A stretch of DNA of 41,340 nucleotides from a virus (lineage: Duplodnaviria; Heunggongvirae; Uroviricota; Caudoviricetes), in IMG/VR virus record IMGVR_UViG_2778261227_000005, positions 1 through 41,340 of that record. The stretch is one strand, 5' to 3'. Of this stretch, positions 49 to 19,949 are shown in pieces. How positions within the stretch are numbered: the stretch's first letter is position 1; each line of letters starts with the position of its first letter. The notes under the pieces are model-generated. The model made no database searches. It saw only the letters and a program-made list of their open reading frames with translations, and had not been told where the DNA came from. The position numbers and the translations under genes are program-made.

Positions 49-2802
49 TTAGTCTCCAGGATTCCCGGGGCGGTTCAGAATGACTAGTTGTTGCCAATAA
101 ATTCGTAGGTCAGGAGCCCCGTTAGCTAAGCCTTTACCAAATTCGACGCGATACGGCATTCCATCCCGCAAAAAAAGATTAGGGCACAACTCATCAAGTC
201 CATGGGAAGATACTGCAAATTCGTGCCCCAACTTGAAAGCTTTGGCACAAAGTATTTTCCTGATTTCACTGAATTTATTAGTTCCTTGGTGCTCATAATC
301 AGCATCTAGAGCCCAAAAATCGCGCCTATTACTGAGTACATAAGCCATGATTGCCGAAACCAAGTCTTTAGGTTCTAATTCTCGTTCCAATGTCACAAGT
401 ATTTCCGGCAATGGTTCTACGTCTTCGTTATCTTTTCTTTTTGTATGGAAAAAGTAGATTGTTGAGCGGACAGCTTTCCAGCCTTCACCCCAAGGGCGAT
501 GGGCATGTAACTTACGAGCCGCATCAATTAATTTTGACCTTATTCCTCCATGACGCCAAATCCAGCGAAATTTATCAGCCAAGATCCGCCTGGCATCATC
601 TTCAAGCTCGGGCACTCCTGAGGTTCCTAATCTCACCAAAATATCGATGAAGGCGAATAGCCACGCAACAAGTTCATCGTAACTGGGTCGAAATCCATAA
701 TCTCTTGGCCTAGCACCAAACTCATTAATTCCGAATCCTGTCCACGGAGGTCCGCCGAGAGCAGTTTCAAGCATTTCGATCCCCATCCTTCTACGTTCGG
801 CCATACTTGAATCAATGCATTCATTCATGATCGCAACACGTTGTTCTAAAGAGGCATGGGTACCGGATAGATAAGGTTGGAAAAACCTCTTTATCTTATT
901 TCGAGCCGAATCATAATTATTGCTCGCGCTTTCCTGGTCTGCGATACGGATTAAGAGCTTAATGCATCGTTCAAAGTATTTCGATTCATATGCAAGTAAC
1001 TGCAACAATTTGATAATTGCTGTTCGTTGTGGGTTGTAGCGTGATTTAAAATGCTCAAAATTAGACGTAACAAGCGTTTCTTCAATCCTCTCAAGCAAAG
1101 TTCCTGGGGCAACTGGAGCGATATAATTTAGAATGCGTGTCGATACATCATCTAGGTCTATTATTTTTCCAAGCAGCCCTTCGGGCTGTAACCAAGCTTC
1201 AACAATCTCTTTAGCCACAGCATGGCTATGCAATAGTCCCAACCTGTGCGCGAACGACATCAATAATCGTTGCCGATCCGGAGCTTCAAAGGTCGTTCTA
1301 AGTTGATCAATCGGAATACTATTAAGTGCAGATGCTGCCAACTTGTTAGCAATGGCATGGGGAAGGATGGCTCTCCAGTGGGATCTTTTCTGAACAATGT
1401 GACGTTCCATCAACTTCGTAACAGCTTTGAATAACTGGATTTTGGGATACCCAGAGAGCACACCCAATATTTCCAGTTCATCGGTAGCTGCATCTGGACT
1501 AGATATCGAGAACGAATACACCAGTGACAATATTTCAGCTTGCTCCCGTAAATGGCCGTCGGGATGATTACGTTGTTCAAACAAGCGATTAAACAACTGC
1601 GCATCTGAAAGTAGGGCTAAACTCTCACCTTCTTCCACTCTTTCCGCTATAGCCAAAGCCACTCTTGCATTCCCATCTGCGAACTCTGCAATCCGACGGG
1701 CATTATTCTGACCAATAGAAGGGAAGCGACGGATAAGAAGTTGCTCTGCCACGTCTGGACCATCTGTCTCAATGTGGATGACCTCAGTTGTCTGTGGTTT
1801 GTCATCCCTAATGTCGTACTCGATCGTGATGAGACTTACTTCTTTCCCTGCGGCTGATACTTTGCTGGCAAGCGAAGCATGGAGTTCTGATGGGCAATTA
1901 TCAAGGATCATAATTGCTCGCCGGCCTTCAGCGAGCAGGTTATCAAGCATTGCTGTAGCCGACGGTACTGGCTCATAGCCAGTATCAACATAAATAGCTA
2001 CTGTTCGGTCAAGCGCATCTGTTCCAACAGTTTCATCAAAGAGCGCCTGAACGATTCGAGTCTTCCCAACACCAGACAATCCTGTAATACGAACAGCCTT
2101 GTTTGTCGAACGGATCAGTGCTCGCATTGGGTTAATTGCTTCATCAATTTTGAGTTTTTGCCCCTTTCCCGATGGTAAAGTAATGGTTACGCCTGGGGCT
2201 GAGATTAAAGTGTCTATAACACCTTGTGGTGGATTGCTCCAGGCTCCGTAGGGTTGCCAACCGGAATACCCTTGCCCAAGCTTTGCTTTTACCCACAGCA
2301 TGACTGATGGATGTTGGCGCAACCATTGGATGAGTTTGGAGCGGTCGTAGAAATCAAGATGAAGATAACTTTCGTTAGGATCATCTTTTACTGCATCCCT
2401 CATCGCTTTGAGACGATCCTTCTTTCCTGACGGCGAGCAATCATCACCCAGGCTGACAATGATGTAACTGCCTTGCTTTCTGGCTTGTTCAGAAATGATG
2501 GGAGAAAGTGCTTTGCCGGTGCCAATTTCCCTCTCAATTGCAGACTTAGGCATCTTATGTTTCTTTGCCTGAAAGACCGTATCAGGTCTTACAAGAAAGC
2601 CTGCTTTCAGTTGATCAATTGGAACCTGAACATGGATGTCAATTCCTCCGTCAGGGGCTGTAATTGAACCAGACCAATTTACACATGCTGGGCTATGGCC
2701 GTGCATTGCCACTTCAGCTTCTGCTAGCCGAGCGATCAGCTCTTCCAGCTGGATATCGGAGAGCCGAAGTAATTCGTCCTTTTCAATGTCAAAGATTGCC
2801 AC
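49..2802 (-). CDS. Mrr-like PD-(D/E)xK nuclease domain fused to P-loop NTPase with helical C-terminal region (917 aa); candidate STAND/Avs-like antiviral protein
   Basis: Uninterrupted 917-codon ORF. N-terminus has Mrr-type motifs (APDGGIDIHV ... VFQAKKHK), central Walker A GLSGVGKT and Walker B-like AIMILDNC, long C-terminal region with no motif I recognise. AT-richer than the prophage core. Family call from motif recall only. Confidence 0.7.
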   Translation of the reverse strand: MAIFDIEKDELLRLSDIQLEELIARLAEAEVAMHGHSPACVNWSGSITAPDGGIDIHVQVPIDQLKAGFLVRPDTVFQAKKHKMPKSAIEREIGTGKALSPIISEQARKQGSYIIVSLGDDCSPSGKKDRLKAMRDAVKDDPNESYLHLDFYDRSKLIQWLRQHPSVMLWVKAKLGQGYSGWQPYGAWSNPPQGVIDTLISAPGVTITLPSGKGQKLKIDEAINPMRALIRSTNKAVRITGLSGVGKTRIVQALFDETVGTDALDRTVAIYVDTGYEPVPSATAMLDNLLAEGRRAIMILDNCPSELHASLASKVSAAGKEVSLITIEYDIRDDKPQTTEVIHIETDGPDVAEQLLIRRFPSIGQNNARRIAEFADGNARVALAIAERVEEGESLALLSDAQLFNRLFEQRNHPDGHLREQAEILSLVYSFSISSPDAATDELEILGVLSGYPKIQLFKAVTKLMERHIVQKRSHWRAILPHAIANKLAASALNSIPIDQLRTTFEAPDRQRLLMSFAHRLGLLHSHAVAKEIVEAWLQPEGLLGKIIDLDDVSTRILNYIAPVAPGTLLERIEETLVTSNFEHFKSRYNPQRTAIIKLLQLLAYESKYFERCIKLLIRIADQESASNNYDSARNKIKRFFQPYLSGTHASLEQRVAIMNECIDSSMAERRRMGIEMLETALGGPPWTGFGINEFGARPRDYGFRPSYDELVAWLFAFIDILVRLGTSGVPELEDDARRILADKFRWIWRHGGIRSKLIDAARKLHAHRPWGEGWKAVRSTIYFFHTKRKDNEDVEPLPEILVTLERELEPKDLVSAIMAYVLSNRRDFWALDADYEHQGTNKFSEIRKILCAKAFKLGHEFAVSSHGLDELCPNLFLRDGMPYRVEFGKGLANGAPDLRIYWQQLVILNRPGNPGD

Positions 2803-3269: not shown

Positions 3270-6200
3270 ATGAAATGGATAAAAGCACTTAACCTTCAGC
3301 AATGGGCAGATTCTATTCCTGCAAAAGTTATTTTTCCAGCACTAATCGCTGATCTTATACGTGCAACGGCTAACAGTATTACTGAAATTAGATTTCCTAA
3401 TGGTGATAAGGGACAGGTTAGAGGTTATGACGGTGTACTTAAAGCCGAGGGGGTGGCCCCCTATGTTCCTGATGGCGACTCATTCTGGGAATTTGGTGTT
3501 AATGAAAAATTGCTTGATAAAGCTAACTTTGATTACGAAAAAAGAACACGCGAAGTTGCTCCAGAGATACGTCTAAAGACTACTTTTGTTTTCGCTTCAT
3601 TAAGAACATGGGATAATCCTAAGGTAAAGCTTGAAGACTGGCTACAAGAGAAACGCAATAGTGGTAAGTGGAAAGACATCAAATTAATTGATGGTTCTAT
3701 GCTTGAAGATTGGCTCGGTGTTTGCCCTGCTGTAGCTGCTTACTACGCTCGCTACCATCTTGAGCTAATGCCACAGGTTGGTGTTAGAAGCATTAAGGAG
3801 TTTTGGGATGAATTTTCCACTAAATTTAATCCCCCTTTAACTGAAGCAGTCTTGCTGGCGGGGAGAGAAAAGCAAAAAGAGCGTTTTCTGAATGAGTTAC
3901 GAGAAAATGGTCGAAAAATATCTTTAGCTGCAGATTCTCCGGATGAGGTTATTGCTTTTGCGATTGCAGCTATCAGAACCACTGAAGCGGAACTTCGACA
4001 TTCCTTTCAAAGTCGAGCACTAATTATTGATACGGATGATGCTGCAAGACAGCTTTCTGGAAAAAGAGGAATGATCTTCTTACCACGTGATCGAGCAAGA
4101 GCTTTAGCCGGTTTATTACAGCAAGCATCTATCACAGTAGTAAGTGCCGGAGCCGATGAAACACGAACTGATCACGAACTTCTGATCCGCCCAGATAGTA
4201 TATCTTTAGGTAAGGCTCTTGAATCTATGGGGTTTGATTCAGATAAAAGTTATCAAATAGCGCGGCAGTGTGGCCGAAGTTTGTCTGTTTTGGCTCGCCA
4301 GATATCAAGTAGCACGGCTGAATCACCTGAATGGAAAGACAGCCCTGAGTTGCTCCCTGCTTTATTAGCTGGTGCATGGAGTACATGTTCAGAGAAAGAT
4401 AAGTTAATTCTCAAGCAACTAGCTGGCTATACAGACTATTCTCAAGTTGAAAATCCATTAAGGCTATTAACAAAGCGCCGCGATTCTCCAATTGACCGAG
4501 TAGATGATATTTGGTCATTGCGTTCGTCGGTAGATGCTTTTGTACATTTAGGCTATTTGCTGGGTGAAGAACACCTGGAGCGTTTTGAGAAGGCCGTAAG
4601 AGAGGTTTTTTCCTATATTCCTGAACCACCAAAGGCCGAAGATCTGTTTGTACCTGACAATGGTATTAAAACGTCTTATAGCTCGTGGTTACGTAATGGA
4701 ATGACAACAGTTTTGCTACATATGGCAATATTACATGAACAGGCCGAATTCCGGGTTACTGGTATGACACCCCAAGATTTTGTTAACAAAATAGTTCAGA
4801 GTATTCCGGGACTTGCTAACGACCATCGACTATTTGTTAGTTTGCGAGATCAACTTCCGCTGCTGGCAGAAGCTGCCCCTGGCCCTTTCCTTGATGCCCT
4901 TGAGCAATTGCTTAAGGGCAATGGGGAAATGATTGCTCCAATATTCAATGAAGATAAAGGGCTGTTAACTCCTCGAAGTCATTATCATGGATTAAAATGG
5001 GCATTGGAAGCCTTGGCTTGGGAACAAACATATCTATTACGCGCTGCAATCTGTCTTGCAAAACTCGCTGTAATAGATCCCGGAGGAACTTACTCAGATC
5101 GCCCTCTTAATAGTTTAAGAACCATTTTTCTGGCATGGTCTCCTAATACATGGGCACCAGTAAAAGTTAGAAATGCAATTATAAAAAAAATTATCACTAT
5201 TGTTCCTAGTATTGGGTGGAGTTTGTTACAAAATCTCCTTCCTCGCTCCCATGATACCTCTGATCAAAACCAAAAAATGAAGTTCAGAGAGTCGGATAAA
5301 GATGTAGAAAAACTAACGTGGGGCGTTGTTTGGGAGGGGCAAATCTTTATTATCCAAGAAGCAATTAAACTTGCAGGTATACTCCCAACAAGATGGGAAA
5401 TCCTAATCTCTCATTTAAGCTCATTCCCTGAGAATGCAATAGATGAAACACTTTCTCATCTTGAACTTTGCCTTTCTCAACAAACTGAAGAGGATCAGTT
5501 CATCGTATGGGAGGCTTTGCGTCATGAGTATTCTCGCCATAAAAAATATTCAGATGCGAACTGGGCATTTAAATTTGAGTCTATGGAAAAAATAGCGAAA
5601 ATACTTGATAATTATAAACCAATTGACATGGTTAGAGCCAGTTTATGGATTTTCAATGATTGGGATTCTGATATTGAAGAGTCAATTGAAAATGCTGGCG
5701 GAATTTTTTCTTCTGTCGAAGAAATGCGAAGTGAAAAACTTAGGGAAATATACTTTACTTTAGGTTTGTCTGGGGTGAAAGACCTTTTTCAACAAGTTAA
5801 TAATGTTTTTATTGCAGCAAGGCATATATCAGCACTCTCGTTGGATGAAGAAAAATTAAATGATTTGTTTGTAATGCTTATTAACAACAAAAAAAATATT
5901 GATGAAGTTTGTGGGTTGTTAATGCAATATGGTGTTGAATGCTTTGGTGCTGAATGGCTTAATAAAATAAAAGTGTATTTTAAACAGTTTAAAATTACCC
6001 CTGATAGGGCTGGGAAAATCTTAGCATCGTTAAGAGACTCACAAGAGATATGGAGCATTATTGAAGGGTTTGAAGATAACATCAACGAAAAATATTGGTT
6101 GCAAAAACAACCCATTGCAATGATGGGTAAAACTTCGGATTTATTTGTTCTTATGGATAAATATATAGAAAGGGGCCGGGGTCTTGCTGCTATTATATCA

Positions 6201-7016
6201 GCAAATCAACGCCTTTCTGAGATTCCATCTACAACACTTTTATATCTTCTAGATATAGTCGTTAAAGAAATAAATAGCCAGGATATCCAATTTGATACAA
6301 TGCTATCGTACTATGTAAAAAAAGTTTTTGATGAACTCAAACAACGTAACGATGTTTCTGAAACAGATTTGGCATTTAAAGAAATGACCTACTTGCCTTG
6401 TTTTCCGGATAGCGATGAGCCACTTATCCTGCATCGTCTAATGATGAAAAAGCCAGAGGTTTTTATAGAAGCAATATGTATTGTATATCGTAGTGACGAA
6501 GATGAACAAACAGAACCATCGGAGTTGGAAGTTAAAAGAGCTACTTCTATATACAGATTACTTGAAAAATTACGAATACTACCAGGGCAGATAGACAATG
6601 AAATTGATCAAGATAAACTTGAAGATTGGTGTGAGAATGTACGCCATTTAGCAAAATTGCATCATCGCCAAGAAATCACTGATCATGTAATAGGAAAAAT
6701 TCTGGCACATGCCCCTAATAGCTCAGTAGATAATTCCTGGCCACATGAAGCAATTCGGCACATCATTGAAATATTATCTTCTGATGAGTTAGAGCAAGGT
6801 ATACAAATTGGTAGGTACAATAAAAGGGGGGTATTTGCTCGTATGCGTTACGAAGGTGGAAACCAAGAAAGGATATTAGCTGAGCAGTACCGAGAATGGG
6901 CAAATTCAATGCCCCACTGCGTCCGTACTTCTGCAATGCTATTTAGAATCGCTGACGAATGGGAATACTCAGCAAAAAACGCAGATATTCGAGCCGCAAA
7001 GGCTGATTTAAAATAG
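3270..7016 (+). CDS. Large hypothetical protein (1248 aa), no recognisable catalytic motif; candidate defence-island cargo
   Basis: Single 1248-codon ORF, strongly AT-rich, GGTGGAG RBS-like sequence upstream of ATG 3270. No Walker A (GxxxxGK[ST]) or helicase motif found on reading. Divergent from the 917-aa gene across a 467-bp AT-rich spacer. Confidence 0.8.
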   Translation: MKWIKALNLQQWADSIPAKVIFPALIADLIRATANSITEIRFPNGDKGQVRGYDGVLKAEGVAPYVPDGDSFWEFGVNEKLLDKANFDYEKRTREVAPEIRLKTTFVFASLRTWDNPKVKLEDWLQEKRNSGKWKDIKLIDGSMLEDWLGVCPAVAAYYARYHLELMPQVGVRSIKEFWDEFSTKFNPPLTEAVLLAGREKQKERFLNELRENGRKISLAADSPDEVIAFAIAAIRTTEAELRHSFQSRALIIDTDDAARQLSGKRGMIFLPRDRARALAGLLQQASITVVSAGADETRTDHELLIRPDSISLGKALESMGFDSDKSYQIARQCGRSLSVLARQISSSTAESPEWKDSPELLPALLAGAWSTCSEKDKLILKQLAGYTDYSQVENPLRLLTKRRDSPIDRVDDIWSLRSSVDAFVHLGYLLGEEHLERFEKAVREVFSYIPEPPKAEDLFVPDNGIKTSYSSWLRNGMTTVLLHMAILHEQAEFRVTGMTPQDFVNKIVQSIPGLANDHRLFVSLRDQLPLLAEAAPGPFLDALEQLLKGNGEMIAPIFNEDKGLLTPRSHYHGLKWALEALAWEQTYLLRAAICLAKLAVIDPGGTYSDRPLNSLRTIFLAWSPNTWAPVKVRNAIIKKIITIVPSIGWSLLQNLLPRSHDTSDQNQKMKFRESDKDVEKLTWGVVWEGQIFIIQEAIKLAGILPTRWEILISHLSSFPENAIDETLSHLELCLSQQTEEDQFIVWEALRHEYSRHKKYSDANWAFKFESMEKIAKILDNYKPIDMVRASLWIFNDWDSDIEESIENAGGIFSSVEEMRSEKLREIYFTLGLSGVKDLFQQVNNVFIAARHISALSLDEEKLNDLFVMLINNKKNIDEVCGLLMQYGVECFGAEWLNKIKVYFKQFKITPDRAGKILASLRDSQEIWSIIEGFEDNINEKYWLQKQPIAMMGKTSDLFVLMDKYIERGRGLAAIISANQRLSEIPSTTLLYLLDIVVKEINSQDIQFDTMLSYYVKKVFDELKQRNDVSETDLAFKEMTYLPCFPDSDEPLILHRLMMKKPEVFIEAICIVYRSDEDEQTEPSELEVKRATSIYRLLEKLRILPGQIDNEIDQDKLEDWCENVRHLAKLHHRQEITDHVIGKILAHAPNSSVDNSWPHEAIRHIIEILSSDELEQGIQIGRYNKRGVFARMRYEGGNQERILAEQYREWANSMPHCVRTSAMLFRIADEWEYSAKNADIRAAKADLK

Positions 7017-16160: not shown

Positions 16161-17054
16161 ATGAGTGGTGATGTGAGAAATTATCGTATTGAGTTTCATC
16201 AGCTATCGTTTAAGGCCACAGATCAGCTGGCAAATCTCGGAGATTCTTTTCAATCTGTAATTGATAAACAGAGCCCTTCCTCTTCAAACCATGAGGGTTT
16301 TACTAGAGAAATTTGGGGGTTGAAAAAACGCGCGGATGGTTCTTTTAGTGGAGAGTTGAGAAAATTTCGCAACTCGAACATTCCAGATAAAGGTGCACCA
16401 GGGAAACAGTCTACCCCTATTCCACTTGCCAAGGATGAAGGGATCATTGAGCGCAATTTCTTTGTATTCTATCCCCGAATCAATGTTATAGGTTGGCACT
16501 ATAATCATATGGCTTGTGGTATAAGCCGTTTTAGTGCATTTCTTTCAACTATCTTTGGTTCAAAGGTTAAGCCCGCACCTTTGCTGGAAAAAGATGCAAT
16601 CGCTAGGCTTATGAGAGGAGATGTCAAAATGAAAAAAATCCAGTTGACGATTCCTCGCCCCCGTAATCCTGAGTTTTACCCTGATACTGATTTCAGTCAA
16701 AAGACACTACAACTGCTTGGTGATGCAGGTGCCGATACAATGCAAATTGTAATGGGGATTAATACTCGCCGTGGCGATAGTGATGGTAGGCTTAAGCAGA
16801 ATATAAAATTTGCTATGCAAGAGTTAGTCGAGTTTGGGGCGAAAAAGGCTGTAATTGATGTGTTCGATGCTGATGGTGTTGTCCATCCTGTGGATTTGAT
16901 TGCCGAGCGTATTTCGTCCTATCAATCGGTGGTTACTGACGCTCGTTTCCCTCCAGCCGAAACCATGTACCGTCTAATCGATACTGCGTATGCTGAAAAC
17001 CGGGAGAGTATCAATGCATATATTGGAGAAGATGAACTCGGCCCTATTGCTTAG
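16161..17054 (+). CDS. Hypothetical soluble protein (297 aa); RexA-like by position and partner, not by demonstrated homology
   Basis: AT-rich ORF immediately downstream of the repressor on the same strand; overlaps the following 4-TM gene by 41 nt; no catalytic motif recognised. Confidence 0.75.
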   Translation: MSGDVRNYRIEFHQLSFKATDQLANLGDSFQSVIDKQSPSSSNHEGFTREIWGLKKRADGSFSGELRKFRNSNIPDKGAPGKQSTPIPLAKDEGIIERNFFVFYPRINVIGWHYNHMACGISRFSAFLSTIFGSKVKPAPLLEKDAIARLMRGDVKMKKIQLTIPRPRNPEFYPDTDFSQKTLQLLGDAGADTMQIVMGINTRRGDSDGRLKQNIKFAMQELVEFGAKKAVIDVFDADGVVHPVDLIAERISSYQSVVTDARFPPAETMYRLIDTAYAENRESINAYIGEDELGPIA

Positions 17055-17451
17055 TTTATTGATTGGATGTGGGATTGGTTTTCTCTACTGGTTCAAGTTG
17101 CCCCATATGCCAGTAGCCGCAATCCCAAACTTCATGACTACATTGTCCAGTGTCTTTGCAACGTTGTTAGGTTTTATTATTACAGCAATTGCACTACTTG
17201 CATCATTGCTTGATAAACCGTTACTTAAAAACATGCAAAAAACCGGACATTACAAGCGTCTGATGACCGATGCATTCTACACTTGCTTAGTTTTGCTAGT
17301 GTTGGTGTTGACATGTTTGATTGGGTTGATGCTGCAAAGTAAGCATCAAGAGATTGTAGCCGCTATCCTCATTGGGCTTGTTGTTATGTCTATGTTGTGT
17401 TTATTACAAACAGGTAGGCGATTATTCAATATAATCAAAGTGATATCATAA
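17014..17451 (+). CDS. Small 4-TM membrane protein (~146 aa); RexB-like by architecture
   Basis: Four hydrophobic segments (LLLSLLIGCGIGFLYWF; FATLLGFIITAIALLASLL; YTCLVLLVLVLTCLIGLML; IVAAILIGLVVMSMLCLL). Start chosen at ATG 17014 with GGGAGAG 5-7 nt upstream; the track ORF begins at 16990. Confidence 0.7.
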   Translation: MHILEKMNSALLLSLLIGCGIGFLYWFKLPHMPVAAIPNFMTTLSSVFATLLGFIITAIALLASLLDKPLLKNMQKTGHYKRLMTDAFYTCLVLLVLVLTCLIGLMLQSKHQEIVAAILIGLVVMSMLCLLQTGRRLFNIIKVIS

Positions 17452-17503
17452 CAATGCACCATCAGGTGCATTGTTATGCAAGACTACTTACCTCCTTCTG
17501 AGC

Positions 17504-18271
17504 CTACTCTAAATTACTTACAATAAGTTCGCGCCGTAGTGTTCCCTTTCCTGCAAGACTGTAGTTGACCTTCACACAGTGAATGTTCAGACCGTTAAAA
17601 ACCTGCCGCATTTCCGGGATATCGTTGACCGATATAATCATCTTTCCTCTGATGCAACGGGCCAGCTCTGCCAACCGCGAGTAGTTCCCTTCAGGAAAAT
17701 CCACACCATAGCCTTCCGTACCCAGGTACGGTGGGTCGCAGTAGAACAGCGTGTGCGGACGGTCATAACGCTCAATGCACTGTTGCCAGTCCATGTGTTC
17801 TATCACCGTTCTGGAAAGTCGCAGGTGTGCCGCTGAGAGCTCTTCCTCAATACGCAGCAGGTTGAAGCGTGGCGGGGATGTGGTGGAGGTGCCGAAACTA
17901 TGCTCTGCCACCTTGCCACCAAACGCCTGCTTCTGGAGGTAGTAGAACCGTGCTGCACGCTGGATATCCGTCAGGGTTTCCTCCGGGGTGATCTGCAGCC
18001 ATTTGTAGATCTGCCGGCTAACCAGCGCCCATTTGAACTGGCGGACAAATTCTTCTAGGTGATGCTTTACCACCCGATACAGATTTACCAGTTCACCGTT
18101 GATATCGTTAATGACTTCGATCTTACCTGGTGTCTTAAGAAAATAGAGCGCAGCTGCGCCGCAGAACGGCTCCACATAACATTCATGCGCTGGAAACAGC
18201 GGCAGAATGTGTTTTGCCAGGCGGCGTTTGCCCCCAATCCATGGAACGATGGGTAATGTCTGCATTTTCAT
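17504..18271 (-). CDS. dam: Dam-family N6-adenine DNA methyltransferase (D12 class), no cognate nuclease adjacent
   Basis: WIGGKRRL, motif I EPFCGAAALYF and motif IV DPPY in Dam-like order; 255 aa. Confidence 0.85.
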   Translation of the reverse strand: MKMQTLPIVPWIGGKRRLAKHILPLFPAHECYVEPFCGAAALYFLKTPGKIEVINDINGELVNLYRVVKHHLEEFVRQFKWALVSRQIYKWLQITPEETLTDIQRAARFYYLQKQAFGGKVAEHSFGTSTTSPPRFNLLRIEEELSAAHLRLSRTVIEHMDWQQCIERYDRPHTLFYCDPPYLGTEGYGVDFPEGNYSRLAELARCIRGKMIISVNDIPEMRQVFNGLNIHCVKVNYSLAGKGTLRRELIVSNLE

Positions 18272-18312
18272 AATCTGTAAGCCTTTTACAATTACTAAAA
18301 ATATGGCAGGCT

Positions 18313-18335
18313 AGTCTGGTCTCGCGAGACTGACT
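18313..18335. repeat. Imperfect palindrome AGTCTGGTCTCGCGAGACTGACT in the Dam / zinc-ribbon divergent region
   Basis: Core GTCTCGCGAGAC (18319-18330) is a perfect 12-bp palindrome; possible regulator site or hairpin. Confidence 0.3.
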
Positions 18336-18472
18336 GAACCTCGGTCGGCTCACAGCCACTTCTGTGGGACGATGGCCAGTCCGGCTTTCGGGTGCCGGGC
18401 TGGTCGTTCTTTCATGATGCGGCAGGAATGAAGTGATTTCTGTTAATGTGGTTTAGAGGATATCGGGGTGCT

Positions 18473-18967
18473 ATGGATACAAACGCTTTATTAACAGCTC
18501 TTGGCTATATCAGCAGTACTGCTCAGAAAATAATAAAAGAGCGTGATCAAATAAAACAGGCCGCTTTGACCAGTGAATTACAGAGTAAAATTATTGAAGC
18601 ACAGGGGCAGTTCTTTGAGGTAACGAGCAAGCTAGGAGAACAGCAAAAAACCATTACCAATCTGGAAGAGAAAATTCGCTCTCTGGAAGACCTTCTTAAC
18701 TTTCGCGGTAATTATAAACTGACGTTACTGAGTGAAGAAAAAGGCTTCTATGCTTATCGTTATACGGGAAACGATGAAACTGAACATTATATTTGCCAGA
18801 CTTGTTTTGATTCCAAAAACCTGAAAAGTATCCTGCGTATACGGAAAGACAGTTTTTGCATGTGTCCGGTTTGTGGTCAAAACAGTGCTGTATGGTTGAA
18901 AGGAGAGCCAAATCCAGTTCGTATCAGGTCTCGTAAGAGGGATGACTTCTATGATGGTTTTATCTAG
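18473..18967 (+). CDS. Coiled-coil protein with C-terminal zinc ribbon (~164 aa), unknown function
   Basis: AT-rich ORF; Cys cluster CQTCF ... CMCPVCG; predicted coiled coil in the N-terminal half. Start at ATG 18473 (track ORF begins at 18446). Confidence 0.6.
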   Translation: MDTNALLTALGYISSTAQKIIKERDQIKQAALTSELQSKIIEAQGQFFEVTSKLGEQQKTITNLEEKIRSLEDLLNFRGNYKLTLLSEEKGFYAYRYTGNDETEHYICQTCFDSKNLKSILRIRKDSFCMCPVCGQNSAVWLKGEPNPVRIRSRKRDDFYDGFI

Positions 18968-18993
18968 TTGTTATCCACGGTTTTATACAAGTA

Positions 18994-19029
18994 ATCCTGT
19001 GGGTGGTGTGTTTTTATCATCCACAGGAT
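18994..19029. terminator. Inverted repeat ATCCTGTGG...CCACAGGAT with T-rich loop between convergent genes; candidate bidirectional terminator
   Basis: 9-bp perfect arms at 18994-19002 and 19021-19029; loop contains tgtttttat. Confidence 0.35.
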
Positions 19030-19042
19030 ACCGATAATATTT

Positions 19043-19468
19043 TTACTTTTCTGTAGATTTAATAACCTTACATAATTCCATTAAAACCAGCTCCTGATCG
19101 TATAATACGAACAATGCAGCAATTGCGGCATGTACAGCATCGGGCAGTATCCAGGGGTTCTTGCCTTCGGGACATATAACTTCCAGCAGTGCATTCGTCA
19201 GGCAAATGCGCTCTTCACTATATGATAGAGTTACCCGCTCAGTGTATTCTTCCAGTCGGATAATTGTACCTGCCCGTGGTTTCTGCCATGTGCTCAGATC
19301 ATCCCCACTCATACGGCGCTCATTCTCCACGTCAGCAGCATCGACAATGACGCTGTTTCCGGGTTCCTGTTTCACCATCTCTTCTATCCGCGCCAGTACG
19401 TAACTTTTACCGCTGCCCACAGGACCGGACACGGTGACAGTGATGACCGGATTCAGTGTCTGCGTCAT
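19043..19468 (-). CDS. Small P-loop protein (141 aa), unknown function
   Basis: Walker A VSGPVGSGKSY near the N-terminus; no other motif recognised; convergent with the zinc-ribbon gene. Confidence 0.6.
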   Translation of the reverse strand: MTQTLNPVITVTVSGPVGSGKSYVLARIEEMVKQEPGNSVIVDAADVENERRMSGDDLSTWQKPRAGTIIRLEEYTERVTLSYSEERICLTNALLEVICPEGKNPWILPDAVHAAIAALFVLYDQELVLMELCKVIKSTEK

Positions 19469-19598
19469 ATCGTATTCTCCTCTGTGAATAATTCATCGTT
19501 TATCCTGCACATCCCGTATCCCCGGCTCTCTTAACGCGCTTTAAAATCCTTTGCGCCCTGTATTTGTGATGCTGTCTCCACCAAACGAGGAGACACAC

Positions 19599-19949
19599 AT
19601 GAAAAACCTGAAAAAATTCATTCCCCCTGTTAAAAAACCTCGCCTCAGCGGCTGGCTGCTGACCTCAGTGCTGTTGCTGGGTACCATCGCTCTGGTCTCG
19701 CCACAGCAGTTGCCTGTTGTGATCTACAAGCTGGCACTCATCACGCTGGCAGCAGTGCTGGGTTACTGGCTTGACCGTTCGCTCTTCCCCAAAGCCCGTC
19801 CCGGCCAGTACCTGAAACATGACGACAGGCTGATGGCTGAAGGGCGTTTCCCGGTACAGACCGGCCTTCACCTGGTGTTTTCTGCTGCGTTAATCCGCCG
19901 TGCACTGATTGTTGCAGCGGTCTGCCTGGCTGTGGCAACAGGACTGTGA
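19599..19949 (+). CDS. Membrane protein, putative holin or lysis-associated protein
   Basis: GAGGAG RBS 7 nt before ATG 19599; hydrophobic segments (WLLTSVLLLGTIALV, LALITLAAVLGYWL, LIVAAVCLAVATGL); stop overlaps the endolysin start (ATGA). Confidence 0.55.
   Translation: MKNLKKFIPPVKKPRLSGWLLTSVLLLGTIALVSPQQLPVVIYKLALITLAAVLGYWLDRSLFPKARPGQYLKHDDRLMAEGRFPVQTGLHLVFSAALIRRALIVAAVCLAVATGL

What the first reader, a model, noticed from the sequence alone, without database searches (positions are those of the whole stretch)
18473..19468. Two convergent AT-rich orphan genes: coiled-coil zinc-ribbon protein and 141-aa P-loop protein
These lie between the Dam gene and the lysis cassette. One is a ~164-aa protein with a coiled-coil N-terminus and a CxxC...CxCxxC ribbon; the other is a small protein with a canonical Walker A (GPVGSGKS) but too short for a typical ATPase. 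They face each other across a 9-bp-stem inverted repeat, and neither has a Mu counterpart that I recognise, so they may be accessory or host-takeover functions.
Basis: inference. Interest (0 to 1): 0.45.

Follow-up and report, generated by a model that had tools for sequence, protein, structure and literature searches.

The report
Rip1-type prophage defence gene plus neighbour
The zinc-ribbon gene is a divergent member of the recently described Rip1 family of prophage anti-phage pore proteins, and the short P-loop gene beside it is an unrelated, uncharacterised phage gene whose end was swapped in with the Rip1-like gene.

Summary
Both ORFs are real. ORF A is 18473-18967 (+), 164 aa. ORF B is 19043-19468 (-), 141 aa. 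Their dN/dS values are 0.14 and 0.19, and a conserved hairpin lies between the stop codons. They are not orphans and not a pair.

ORF A is homologous to Rip1 ("ring interacting pore 1", PDB 9OOX). The single-sequence match has E=3e-5, the profile match E=2.4e-10, and hhalign gives 97.9% probability. The match covers the long N-terminal helix and both CxxC knuckles. By a review of Patel et al., Nature 2026, Rip1 is a single-protein prophage defence: it wraps ring oligomers of an infecting phage (portal, small terminase) and forms a membrane pore. Relatives of ORF A are also lone opposite-strand genes in other prophage types.

ORF B is the short allele of a mosaic family (phrog_3787). This family always sits divergent from the holin gene in BcepMu-like enterobacterial prophages. 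It has a conserved ~75-aa Walker-A mini-domain and shuffled C-terminal modules. It is not an ABC ATPase, and its function is unknown.

About 850 bp (18467-19315), holding ORF A, the hairpin and the 3' two-thirds of ORF B, is one exchanged cassette. It occurs in 2 of 5426 complete E. coli genomes.

Verdict: new member of a known kind, of modest interest.

The parts
18473..18967 (+). ORF A, 164 aa: a Rip1-family protein from a divergent enterobacterial clade
   Evidence: The ORF is and RefSeq calls the same CDS. phmmer against PDB 9OOX_L Rip1 gives E=3e-5; the profile gives E=2.4e-10. BLASTP against P0103 gives 28% identity, E=5e-9. hhalign gives 97.9%, E=3.4e-13. dN/dS is 0.14.
18479..18709 (+). 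N-terminal long helix (aa 3-79). It starts with a weakly hydrophobic Ala/Gly/Ser-rich segment and continues as an amphipathic coiled coil. It is the inferred pore-forming part.
   Evidence: The AF2 model has a helix over residues 3-79 with pLDDT 61-82. The hydrophobicity and hydrophobic-moment profile resembles those of Rip1 P0103 and the H70-type protein. The role is taken from the review of Patel et al..
18785..18880 (+). Four-Cys zinc ribbon (H105, C108, C111 ... C131, C134) inside the C-terminal beta-rich domain (aa 82-140). It is the inferred ring-binding part.
   Evidence: These columns are invariant in alignments A2, A5 and A6. Both knuckles are aligned by hhalign.
18994..19029 (+). Hairpin between the two stop codons. 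It is stronger in the + strand transcript, so it is most likely the terminator or 3' stabiliser of ORF A.
   Evidence: It is not a canonical intrinsic terminator by the scan: the T-run starts 10 nt after the stem.
19043..19468 (-). ORF B, 141 aa: the short allele of the mosaic phrog_3787 family
   Evidence: dN/dS is 0.19. The SD GAGGAG is at 19477-19482.
19244..19468 (-). Conserved N-terminal mini P-loop domain of ORF B (aa 1-75). Walker A GPVGSGKS lies at 19403-19426.
   Evidence: The representative search recovers 63 clusters, mostly matching only this domain. Alignment A8 has G-K invariant and S, E50, W61 and P64 conserved. AF2 predicts beta-Ploop-alpha-beta-alpha-beta at low confidence.
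19064..19159 (-). C-terminal helical module of ORF B (aa 104-135, PWILPDAVHAAIAALFVLYDQELVLMELCKV). Salmonella alleles share it, including one with a non-P-loop N-terminus.
   Evidence: Alignment A4; sequences.
18467..19315 (.). Exchanged cassette relative to the common (M114/PhiKM-type) prophage. 18467-19075 is unrelated sequence. 19076-19315 is homologous but only 62-85% identical. The flanks are 97-100% identical.
   Evidence: Alignment A1 with windowed identity. dS is 1.05 for ORF B codons 75-134 against 0.24 for codons 1-75.

Best explanation
**Setting.** The window is an E. coli prophage of the BcepMu type (a transposable phage). Between its Dam gene and its lysis cassette lies a cargo slot.

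**ORF A.** In this prophage the slot holds ORF A, a divergent member of the Rip1 family, with its own 3' hairpin.
- By homology (inferred, not shown here), ORF A is made in the lysogen and is harmless on its own.
- When another phage infects and starts assembling ring-shaped oligomers (portal or small terminase), copies of ORF A bind around the ring through the C-terminal zinc-ribbon/beta domain.
- The long N-terminal amphipathic helices then form a pore in the inner membrane. The infected cell dies before progeny are completed.

**ORF B.** ORF B is not part of this mechanism. It is the resident gene of the position divergent from the holin promoter.
- It belongs to a mosaic phage family with a conserved ~75-aa Walker-A mini-domain and interchangeable C-terminal modules.
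- The 141-aa form arose because the recombination that brought in ORF A also replaced the 3' two-thirds of ORF B with a shorter, divergent allele.
- ORF B most likely binds a nucleotide or other phosphate ligand through its P-loop. Its biological role is unknown.
For: **Family assignment of ORF A (shown)**
- PDB 9OOX chain L, 'ring interacting pore 1', is the only significant solved relative: E=3e-5 for the single sequence and 2.4e-10 for the profile.
- P0103, nearly identical to the fragment of that chain read from the alignments (one H/Y difference), gives BLASTP E=5e-9.
- Profile against profile gives 97.9% probability and E=3.4e-13 over 106 columns, including both CxxC knuckles.
- H70 gp29 bridges the two: E=2e-14 to Rip1 and E=2e-5 to ORF A.
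- Length (150-175 aa), the long N-terminal helix followed by a beta domain, and the motifs Y-R, H-Y-x-C-x-x-C, K-S-[IV]-L and C-x-x-C are shared.

**Genomic habit**
- ORF A relatives sit alone on the opposite strand between small-terminase-like and TerL genes in Casadabanvirus. The review names this slot for Rip1.
- They sit between ral and N in a lambdoid prophage.
- They sit between Dam and the holin-proximal gene here and in Citrobacter.

**Mechanism**
- It is taken from the review of Patel et al. 2026.

**Independence of ORF B**
- 636 E. coli genomes share the flanks, but only 2 carry ORF A.
- The rows listed and the M114 and PhiKM loci carry a 242-aa allele beside other small ORFs.
- Citrobacter ORF A homologues face a 235/262-aa protein whose N-terminus lacks a P-loop.
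- phrog_3787 alleles are always divergent from the holin gene, each next to a different opposite-strand ORF.

**Cassette**
Against: - No experiment bears on this particular clade. At 28% identity to Rip1 the trigger, and even the activity, could differ.
- I could not read the primary Rip1 paper. The mechanism is cited from a review and a conference report.
- No convincing sigma-70 promoter was found directly upstream of ORF A. A GC-rich hairpin (18370-18412) lies between the only candidate promoter and the start codon.
- In every E. coli locus seen, the 141-aa ORF B allele and ORF A travel together. A functional link therefore cannot be strictly excluded.
Confidence: 0.75

Rival explanations
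1. ORF A and ORF B form a two-gene unit. ORF B's P-loop domain would regulate, antagonise or complete the Rip1-like protein, for example as a self-immunity factor that stops the prophage's own portal or terminase from triggering ORF A on induction.
For: - The genes are convergent, 75 bp apart, around a shared hairpin.
- ORF A, the hairpin and codons ~52-141 of ORF B lie in one exchanged block.
- Every E. coli locus with ORF A has the 141-aa allele, and the one 141-aa locus looked up on its own has ORF A.
- In Citrobacter the ORF A homologue overlaps by 4 bp the 3' end of the gene in the same position.
Against: [quoted passage not shown]
- Rip1-family genes in Casadabanvirus and in the lambdoid prophage have no phrog_3787 neighbour.
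- The Citrobacter neighbour lacks the P-loop N-terminal domain.
- The C-terminal module of the 141-aa allele also occurs in Salmonella alleles whose neighbour is an 86-aa ORF, not a Rip1 homologue.
- Physical linkage alone explains the co-inheritance.
Confidence: 0.1
2. ORF A is a zinc-ribbon nucleic-acid-binding regulator, comparable to Mu Com or coiled-coil/zinc-ribbon proteins such as HP0958. It would control Dam or the lysis genes rather than act as a defence effector.
For: It lies next to a Dam methylase and the late-operon control region. It has a coiled coil plus a four-Cys ribbon and a basic C-terminal tail, RIRSRKRDD. There are weak Pfam matches to RING-type fingers (E=0.006, below cutoff).
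Against: No regulator family reaches threshold in Pfam or NCBIfam. The only significant solved relative is Rip1. The gene is absent from more than 99% of otherwise similar prophages, so it cannot be a core regulator. Homologues sit in unrelated slots of unrelated phages.
Confidence: 0.05
3. ORF B is a decaying remnant: a truncated gene left by the cargo insertion, with no function.
For: It lacks about 100 C-terminal residues of the common 242-247-aa allele. Many fragmentary or partial versions exist in databases.
Against: dN/dS is 0.19 between 141-aa alleles that differ at dS=0.32, with frame, start and SD intact. Other short forms (148 and 158 aa) and stand-alone 78-88-aa versions of the N-terminal domain exist. 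The imported C-terminal module is itself a conserved element.
Confidence: 0.1

Closest known systems
Rip1, ring interacting pore 1 (PDB 9OOX; Patel et al., Nature 651:1060, 2026, as summarised in PMC13434031)
   Same: It has the same length class (164 aa) and the same order of parts: a weakly hydrophobic N-terminus, a long helix, a Y-R beta hairpin, H-Y-x-C-x-x-C, K-S-I-L and a second C-x-x-C. Homology is significant. Both are prophage-borne stand-alone genes on the strand opposite their neighbours.
   Different: Identity is only about 28%. The spacer between the zinc knuckles is shorter and there is an extra Cys129. The C-terminal tail is basic. The host element differs (a BcepMu-type transposable prophage) and so does the slot (Dam to holin, rather than small to large terminase or ral to N). 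Trigger and activity are untested.
Casadabanvirus accessory ORFs H70 gp29, LPB1 ORF25 and the PaMx73 homologue (Pseudomonas Mu-like phages)
   Same: They are homologous to ORF A (27.5% identity over 83%, E=2e-5) and to Rip1 (E=2e-14). The H70 record annotates its gene as an 'accessory ORF'. Each lies on the opposite strand inside a transposable phage.
   Different: They lie between the DUF1804 small-terminase-like gene and TerL, not next to the lysis genes. The host genus is different.
phrog_3787 / the 242-247-aa hypothetical protein of E. coli BcepMu-like prophages (e.g. phage PhiKM XRL29432, WP_265752219)
   Same: ORF B residues 1-136 match profile positions 1-136 (E=2e-75). It occupies the same position and orientation next to the holin gene.
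   Different: ORF B ends at residue 141 and lacks the ~100-aa C-terminal extension. Codons 75-134 come from a much more divergent allele (dS 1.05).
P-loop NTPases, in particular the Walker-A segment of ABC transporter nucleotide-binding domains
   Same: It has the strand / GxxxxGKS / helix arrangement followed by 'G..I.ID..D', as at the start of ABC NBDs.
   Different: The similarity covers only about 35 residues. There is no ABC signature motif, Q-loop or H-loop. The conserved domain is about 75 aa with three predicted strands. The RefSeq name 'ABC transporter ATPase' is not justified.

Membership tests
Rip1 (ring interacting pore 1) anti-phage family | Significant sequence homology to the Rip1 protein of PDB 9OOX | tested here: met
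   phmmer gives E=3.1e-5 and the profile 2.4e-10. BLASTP to P0103 gives 5e-9. hhalign gives 97.9%, E=3.4e-13.
Rip1 (ring interacting pore 1) anti-phage family | A protein of about 150-175 aa with an N-terminal amphipathic helical half and a C-terminal half that contacts the ring; four conserved Cys | tested here: met
   AF2 predicts a helix over 3-79 and strands over 82-130. Conserved columns are Y95, R96, H105, C108, C111, K118, L121, C131 and C134. Family lengths are 148-175 aa.
Rip1 (ring interacting pore 1) anti-phage family | Stand-alone prophage gene with no conserved partner gene | tested here: met
   The neighbours differ in BcepMu-type, Casadabanvirus and lambdoid contexts.
Rip1 (ring interacting pore 1) anti-phage family | Three-dimensional similarity to the solved Rip1 chain | tested here: inconclusive
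Rip1 (ring interacting pore 1) anti-phage family | Protection against phage; activation by portal or small-terminase oligomers; a 12-mer pore around the ring | not testable with these tools
   This needs phage challenge, escaper mapping and biochemistry. It is known only for Rip1 itself.
P-loop NTPase | Walker A motif GxxxxGK[ST] after a beta strand | tested here: met
   GPVGSGKS lies at residues 15-22. G-K is invariant and S nearly invariant across 16 diverse members. Some members have GKN or lack the first Gly.
P-loop NTPase | Walker B (hhhhD/E) on a neighbouring strand | tested here: inconclusive
   There are two candidates, VIVD43 and IIRLEE74. An acidic residue is conserved at the end of both predicted strands. 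No confident structure is available to place them.
P-loop NTPase | A complete alpha/beta core of five or more strands | tested here: not met
   The conserved domain is about 75 aa with three predicted strands. Stand-alone members are 78-88 aa. PDB profile matches stop after about 35 residues.
ABC transporter ATPase (name given in RefSeq) | A nucleotide-binding domain of about 200 aa with the LSGGQ signature, Q-loop and H-loop; Pfam ABC_tran above threshold | tested here: not met
   ABC_tran gives E=0.044 and 14.8 bits against a cutoff of 25, over residues 4-52 only. The sequence contains no SGG motif.
phrog_3787 (uncharacterised phage protein family) | Match to the family profile | tested here: met
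   E=2e-75, residues 1-136 on profile positions 1-136 of 242. 22 of 23 diverse relatives also match.
Known defence systems in PADLOC-DB v2 (2023) | Match to any PADLOC model | tested here: not met
   There are only weak coiled-coil or P-loop noise hits. Rip1 proper (P0103) also gives no hit, so the library predates the family.

The most novel reading that the evidence does not exclude
The ~75-aa N-terminal module of ORF B would be an autonomous natural P-loop domain. It would be far smaller than any characterised Walker-A NTPase and comparable in size to laboratory 'P-loop prototype' proteins. In this reading, phages use it as a portable nucleotide- or phosphate-binding handle fused to rapidly shuffled C-terminal modules. 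A further possibility is that the module set is matched to the adjacent cargo gene, so that ORF B modulates the Rip1-like protein during the prophage's own lytic cycle.
Probability: 0.15. Interest if true: 0.6.

Novelty: new member of a known kind. Interest (0 to 1): 0.35.

Why it matters
- **New Rip1 carrier.** The result adds BcepMu-type transposable prophages of E. coli and Citrobacter to the elements seen here to carry Rip1-family genes. It defines a clade only about 28% identical to the solved protein. That clade could show which residues set trigger specificity (portal versus small terminase).
- **Defence-cargo hotspot.** The Dam-holin slot of these common prophages holds a different opposite-strand ORF in each lineage examined (134, 126, 86 and 85 aa). 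With the Rip1-like gene among them, the slot is a candidate hotspot for single-gene defence cargo. The other occupants are untested candidates.
- **Annotation fix.** It corrects a misleading RefSeq name ('ABC transporter ATPase').
- **Mini P-loop domain.** It flags a small, mosaic P-loop domain family that protein-evolution researchers might want to test for nucleotide binding.

Tried and rejected
- **Family libraries.** Pfam, NCBIfam and PADLOC scans of both ORFs gave only sub-threshold coiled-coil, RING or P-loop noise.
- **IMG/VR scan.** The scan for ORF A relatives found nothing, because the back-translated patterns were too clade-specific.
- **Rfam.** A scan of 17400-19700 found nothing.
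- **Terminator scan.** The simple scan does not call the inter-ORF hairpin. I therefore call it a hairpin, probably a terminator or stabiliser, not a canonical intrinsic terminator.
- **C-terminal modules of ORF B relatives.** Pfam and PHROG scans of 23 long relatives gave no known domain.
- **Primary Rip1 paper.** It is not held in the library.
- **Literature.** A search on BcepMu-like E. coli prophages gave nothing on these genes.
- **Alternative start.** I rejected the ATG at 18446 (173 aa). It has no SD, RefSeq uses 18473, and homologues start with MD(T/P)N.

Full report
**1. Observation**

The window is an E. coli prophage of the BcepMu type.
- The phage matches are few and partial. Phage PhiKM (genus Bcepmuvirus) covers 54% of the 18300-19650 query at 89% identity.
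- The E. coli JB2 chromosome carries the same region at 99.8% identity.
- Gene order around the finding: transposase, DUF3102 and HTH genes on the minus strand; a cI-type repressor on the plus strand; two plus-strand cargo ORFs; Dam at 17504-18271 (minus); ORF A; ORF B; then holin, SLT endolysin, spanins, Gp27-like small terminase, TerL and a Mu-type portal.

- The cysteine pattern and the Walker A motif read as described.
- GC drops to 0.39 over ORF A.
- A 12-nt inverted repeat lies between the two stop codons.
- As + strand RNA the repeat extends to a 15-bp stem through G-U pairs: -27.7 kcal/mol, z=-5.2. On the - strand it is weaker: -18.7 kcal/mol, z=-3.1.
- The core stem is kept in relatives whose ORF A and ORF B proteins are about 89% identical.
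- Both ORFs are under purifying selection: dN/dS is 0.14 and 0.19 at dS of about 0.3.
- ORF B has a GAGGAG ribosome-binding site.

**2. What ORF A is**

Curated libraries gave nothing above threshold. The one exception was phrog_1244, of unknown function.

The search against solved structures was decisive.
- The only significant hit is chain L of PDB 9OOX, 'ring interacting pore 1 (Rip1)'. It is 164 aa and matches at E=3e-5.
- A profile of ORF A homologues raises this to E=2.4e-10.
- A database protein from E. coli, P0103, differs at one residue from the part of that chain read from the alignments. It shows the full sequence, including a second CxxC.
- BLASTP of ORF A against P0103 gives 28% identity and E=5e-9.
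- A profile-profile comparison of the ORF A clade with the Rip1 and Pseudomonas clades gives 97.9% probability and E=3.4e-13. It spans 106 columns, from the coiled coil through both zinc knuckles.
- Pseudomonas phage H70 gp29 bridges the clades: E=2e-14 to Rip1 and E=2e-5 to ORF A.
- The AF2 model (pLDDT 65) has one long helix (residues 3-79) followed by a small beta domain. This fits the published description of an N-terminal amphipathic helix and a C-terminal ring-contacting half.
- Fold searches with this modest model did not recover 9OOX. The structural test is inconclusive.

**3. What Rip1 does**

I could not read the primary paper. A review (PMC13434031), a meeting report and a citing paper summarise Patel et al., Nature 651:1060 (2026).
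- It is not toxic alone.
- Escaper phages carry mutations in the portal (Pseudomonas phages) or the small terminase (E. coli phages).
- Twelve Rip1 monomers surround an 11-mer small-terminase ring and form a pore that permeabilises membranes, so the infected cell dies prematurely.
- Homologues are widespread in Proteobacteria, mostly in prophages.

**4. Genomic habit**

The genomic habit matches in each case; ORF A relatives are lone genes on the strand opposite their neighbours.
- In Casadabanvirus H70 and LPB1 the relative sits exactly between the DUF1804 small-terminase-like gene and TerL, and the H70 record annotates it as an 'accessory ORF'.
- In a lambdoid prophage, P0103 sits between ral and N. 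From my own knowledge of lambda and P22 this corresponds to the sieB position; I did not test that.
- Here and in Citrobacter it sits between Dam and the gene next to the holin.

No neighbour is conserved across these contexts. The stronger fold of the hairpin in the + strand transcript fits a self-contained gene-plus-terminator unit.

The gene is rare. It occurs in 2 of 5426 complete E. coli genomes, even at blastn sensitivity, while 636 genomes carry the flanking prophage sequence.

**5. What ORF B is**

ORF B matches phrog_3787 at E=2e-75, but only over positions 1-136 of a 242-position profile.
- In the M114 and PhiKM prophages, and in the other rows listed, the gene next to the holin is 242 aa. 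Close database relatives are 247 aa. There the space taken here by ORF A holds a 134-aa plus-strand ORF and a 71-aa ORF.
- Windowed identity against that type shows near-identical flanks up to 18466 and from 19316 onward.
- Between them, 18467-19075 is unrelated sequence. 19076-19315 is homologous but only 62-85% identical.
- Within ORF B, dS is 0.24 for codons 1-75 and 1.05 for codons 75-134.

So about 850 bp was exchanged as one block: ORF A, the hairpin and the distal two-thirds of ORF B. That exchange is why ORF B is short.

An exhaustive profile search found only 63 representative clusters.
- They share an N-terminal domain of about 75 aa. Its order is strand, GxxxxGKS, helix, 'YG..I.I...[DE]L', ER, W..P, strand, E.
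- The rest is a patchwork of modules recombined in different orders. One module is the N-terminal domain of the Citrobacter neighbour of ORF A.
- Some members are just the 78-88-aa domain.
- None of the modules has a Pfam match. PHROG matches are all to families of unknown function.
- Every context examined places the gene divergent from the holin gene of a BcepMu-type enterobacterial prophage. The opposite-strand ORF between it and Dam, or downstream of it, differs each time: 164 aa (Rip1-like), 126 aa, 134 aa, 86 aa or 85 aa.

Matches to real NTPases are confined to about 35 residues around Walker A, and the best are ABC nucleotide-binding domains.
- There is no ABC signature motif, and Pfam ABC_tran is below threshold. 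The RefSeq name 'ABC transporter ATPase' is unfounded.
- The AF2 model is weak (pLDDT 60) and its fold search is uninformative.

My best reading is that ORF B is a phage accessory protein with a minimal phosphate-binding module and an unknown role. It is not a remnant, given the purifying selection and the existence of other short forms.

**6. Are the two genes a system?**

Linkage is real. The 141-aa allele and ORF A always co-occur in the E. coli loci seen, and they share one recombination block. Three observations argue that the linkage is physical rather than functional.
- Rip1 is reported to act alone, and Rip1 relatives elsewhere lack any phrog_3787 neighbour.
- The Citrobacter neighbour has no P-loop.
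- The C-terminal module of the 141-aa allele also occurs in Salmonella alleles that lie next to an unrelated 86-aa ORF.

I put the two-gene reading at about 0.1.

**7. Verdict**

ORF A is a new, divergent member of a known kind, the Rip1 pore-forming anti-phage proteins. It sits in a new host element and a new slot. Its mechanism is inferred from homology only.

ORF B is an unrelated resident gene from an uncharacterised mosaic family. Its mini P-loop domain is the only part with some claim to novelty.

Overall interest is modest.

Noticed in passing
window 49-2802 (-) and 3270-7016 (+): The low-GC region left of the prophage encodes a 917-aa protein that matches PADLOC PD-Lambda-4_A at E=0. 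The match covers only positions 1-908 of a 1283-position profile. Next to it is a 1248-aa ORF with no Pfam or PADLOC hit. This looks like a host defence locus beside the prophage; the A protein may be truncated or a short variant.
   Followed up: partly
window 16161-17054 (+) and 16990-17451 (+): Two cargo ORFs lie downstream of the cI-type repressor. One is 297 aa (phrog_7651) and the other a 153-aa hydrophobic protein (phrog_8552; its only Pfam hits are weak matches to membrane-protein families). Neither has a significant Pfam or PADLOC match. Related prophages carry different genes here: Flk_N-like plus 177 aa, DUF7424, or Mor. This is a second variable cargo slot and a candidate exclusion or defence pair.
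   Followed up: partly
window 18370-18412: A GC-rich hairpin with a 15-bp stem (GATGGCCAGTCCGGC / GCCGGGCTGGTCGTT) lies in the intergenic region between Dam and ORF A. It is conserved in prophages that lack ORF A. It sits between the only promoter-like site (18265-18292) and the ORF A start codon, and it has no Rfam match. Its role is unexplained.
   Followed up: partly
L003 3162-3780; L024 3720-4100; L017 4783-5043; L020 4463-4720: In other BcepMu-type prophages the slot occupied by ORF A holds different small ORFs, mostly on the strand opposite the P-loop gene: 134 aa plus 71 aa, 126 aa, 86 aa, or 85 aa. The 134- and 71-aa ORFs have no Pfam or PADLOC match; the others were not scanned. They are candidates for further single-gene prophage defences.
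   Followed up: no
L016 5001-5495: The E. coli protein nearly identical to the solved Rip1 chain (P0103) is encoded in a lambdoid prophage. It lies on the opposite strand between ral and N, which by my recollection is the position of sieB in lambda and P22.
   Followed up: partly
proteins P0077, P0086, P0091, P0094: Stand-alone proteins of 78-88 aa consist only of the mini P-loop domain found at the N-terminus of ORF B. The domain may therefore fold and function on its own.
   Followed up: no
L004 5486-6193 (-) and L005 5486-6277 (-): The Citrobacter gene convergent with the ORF A homologue overlaps its 3' end by 4 bp. It shares its C-terminal module with long phrog_3787-type proteins (P0051, P0054). 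Its N-terminal module is shared with P0044 and with the C-termini of P0048, P0067 and P0070. This shows extreme domain shuffling at this locus.
   Followed up: partly
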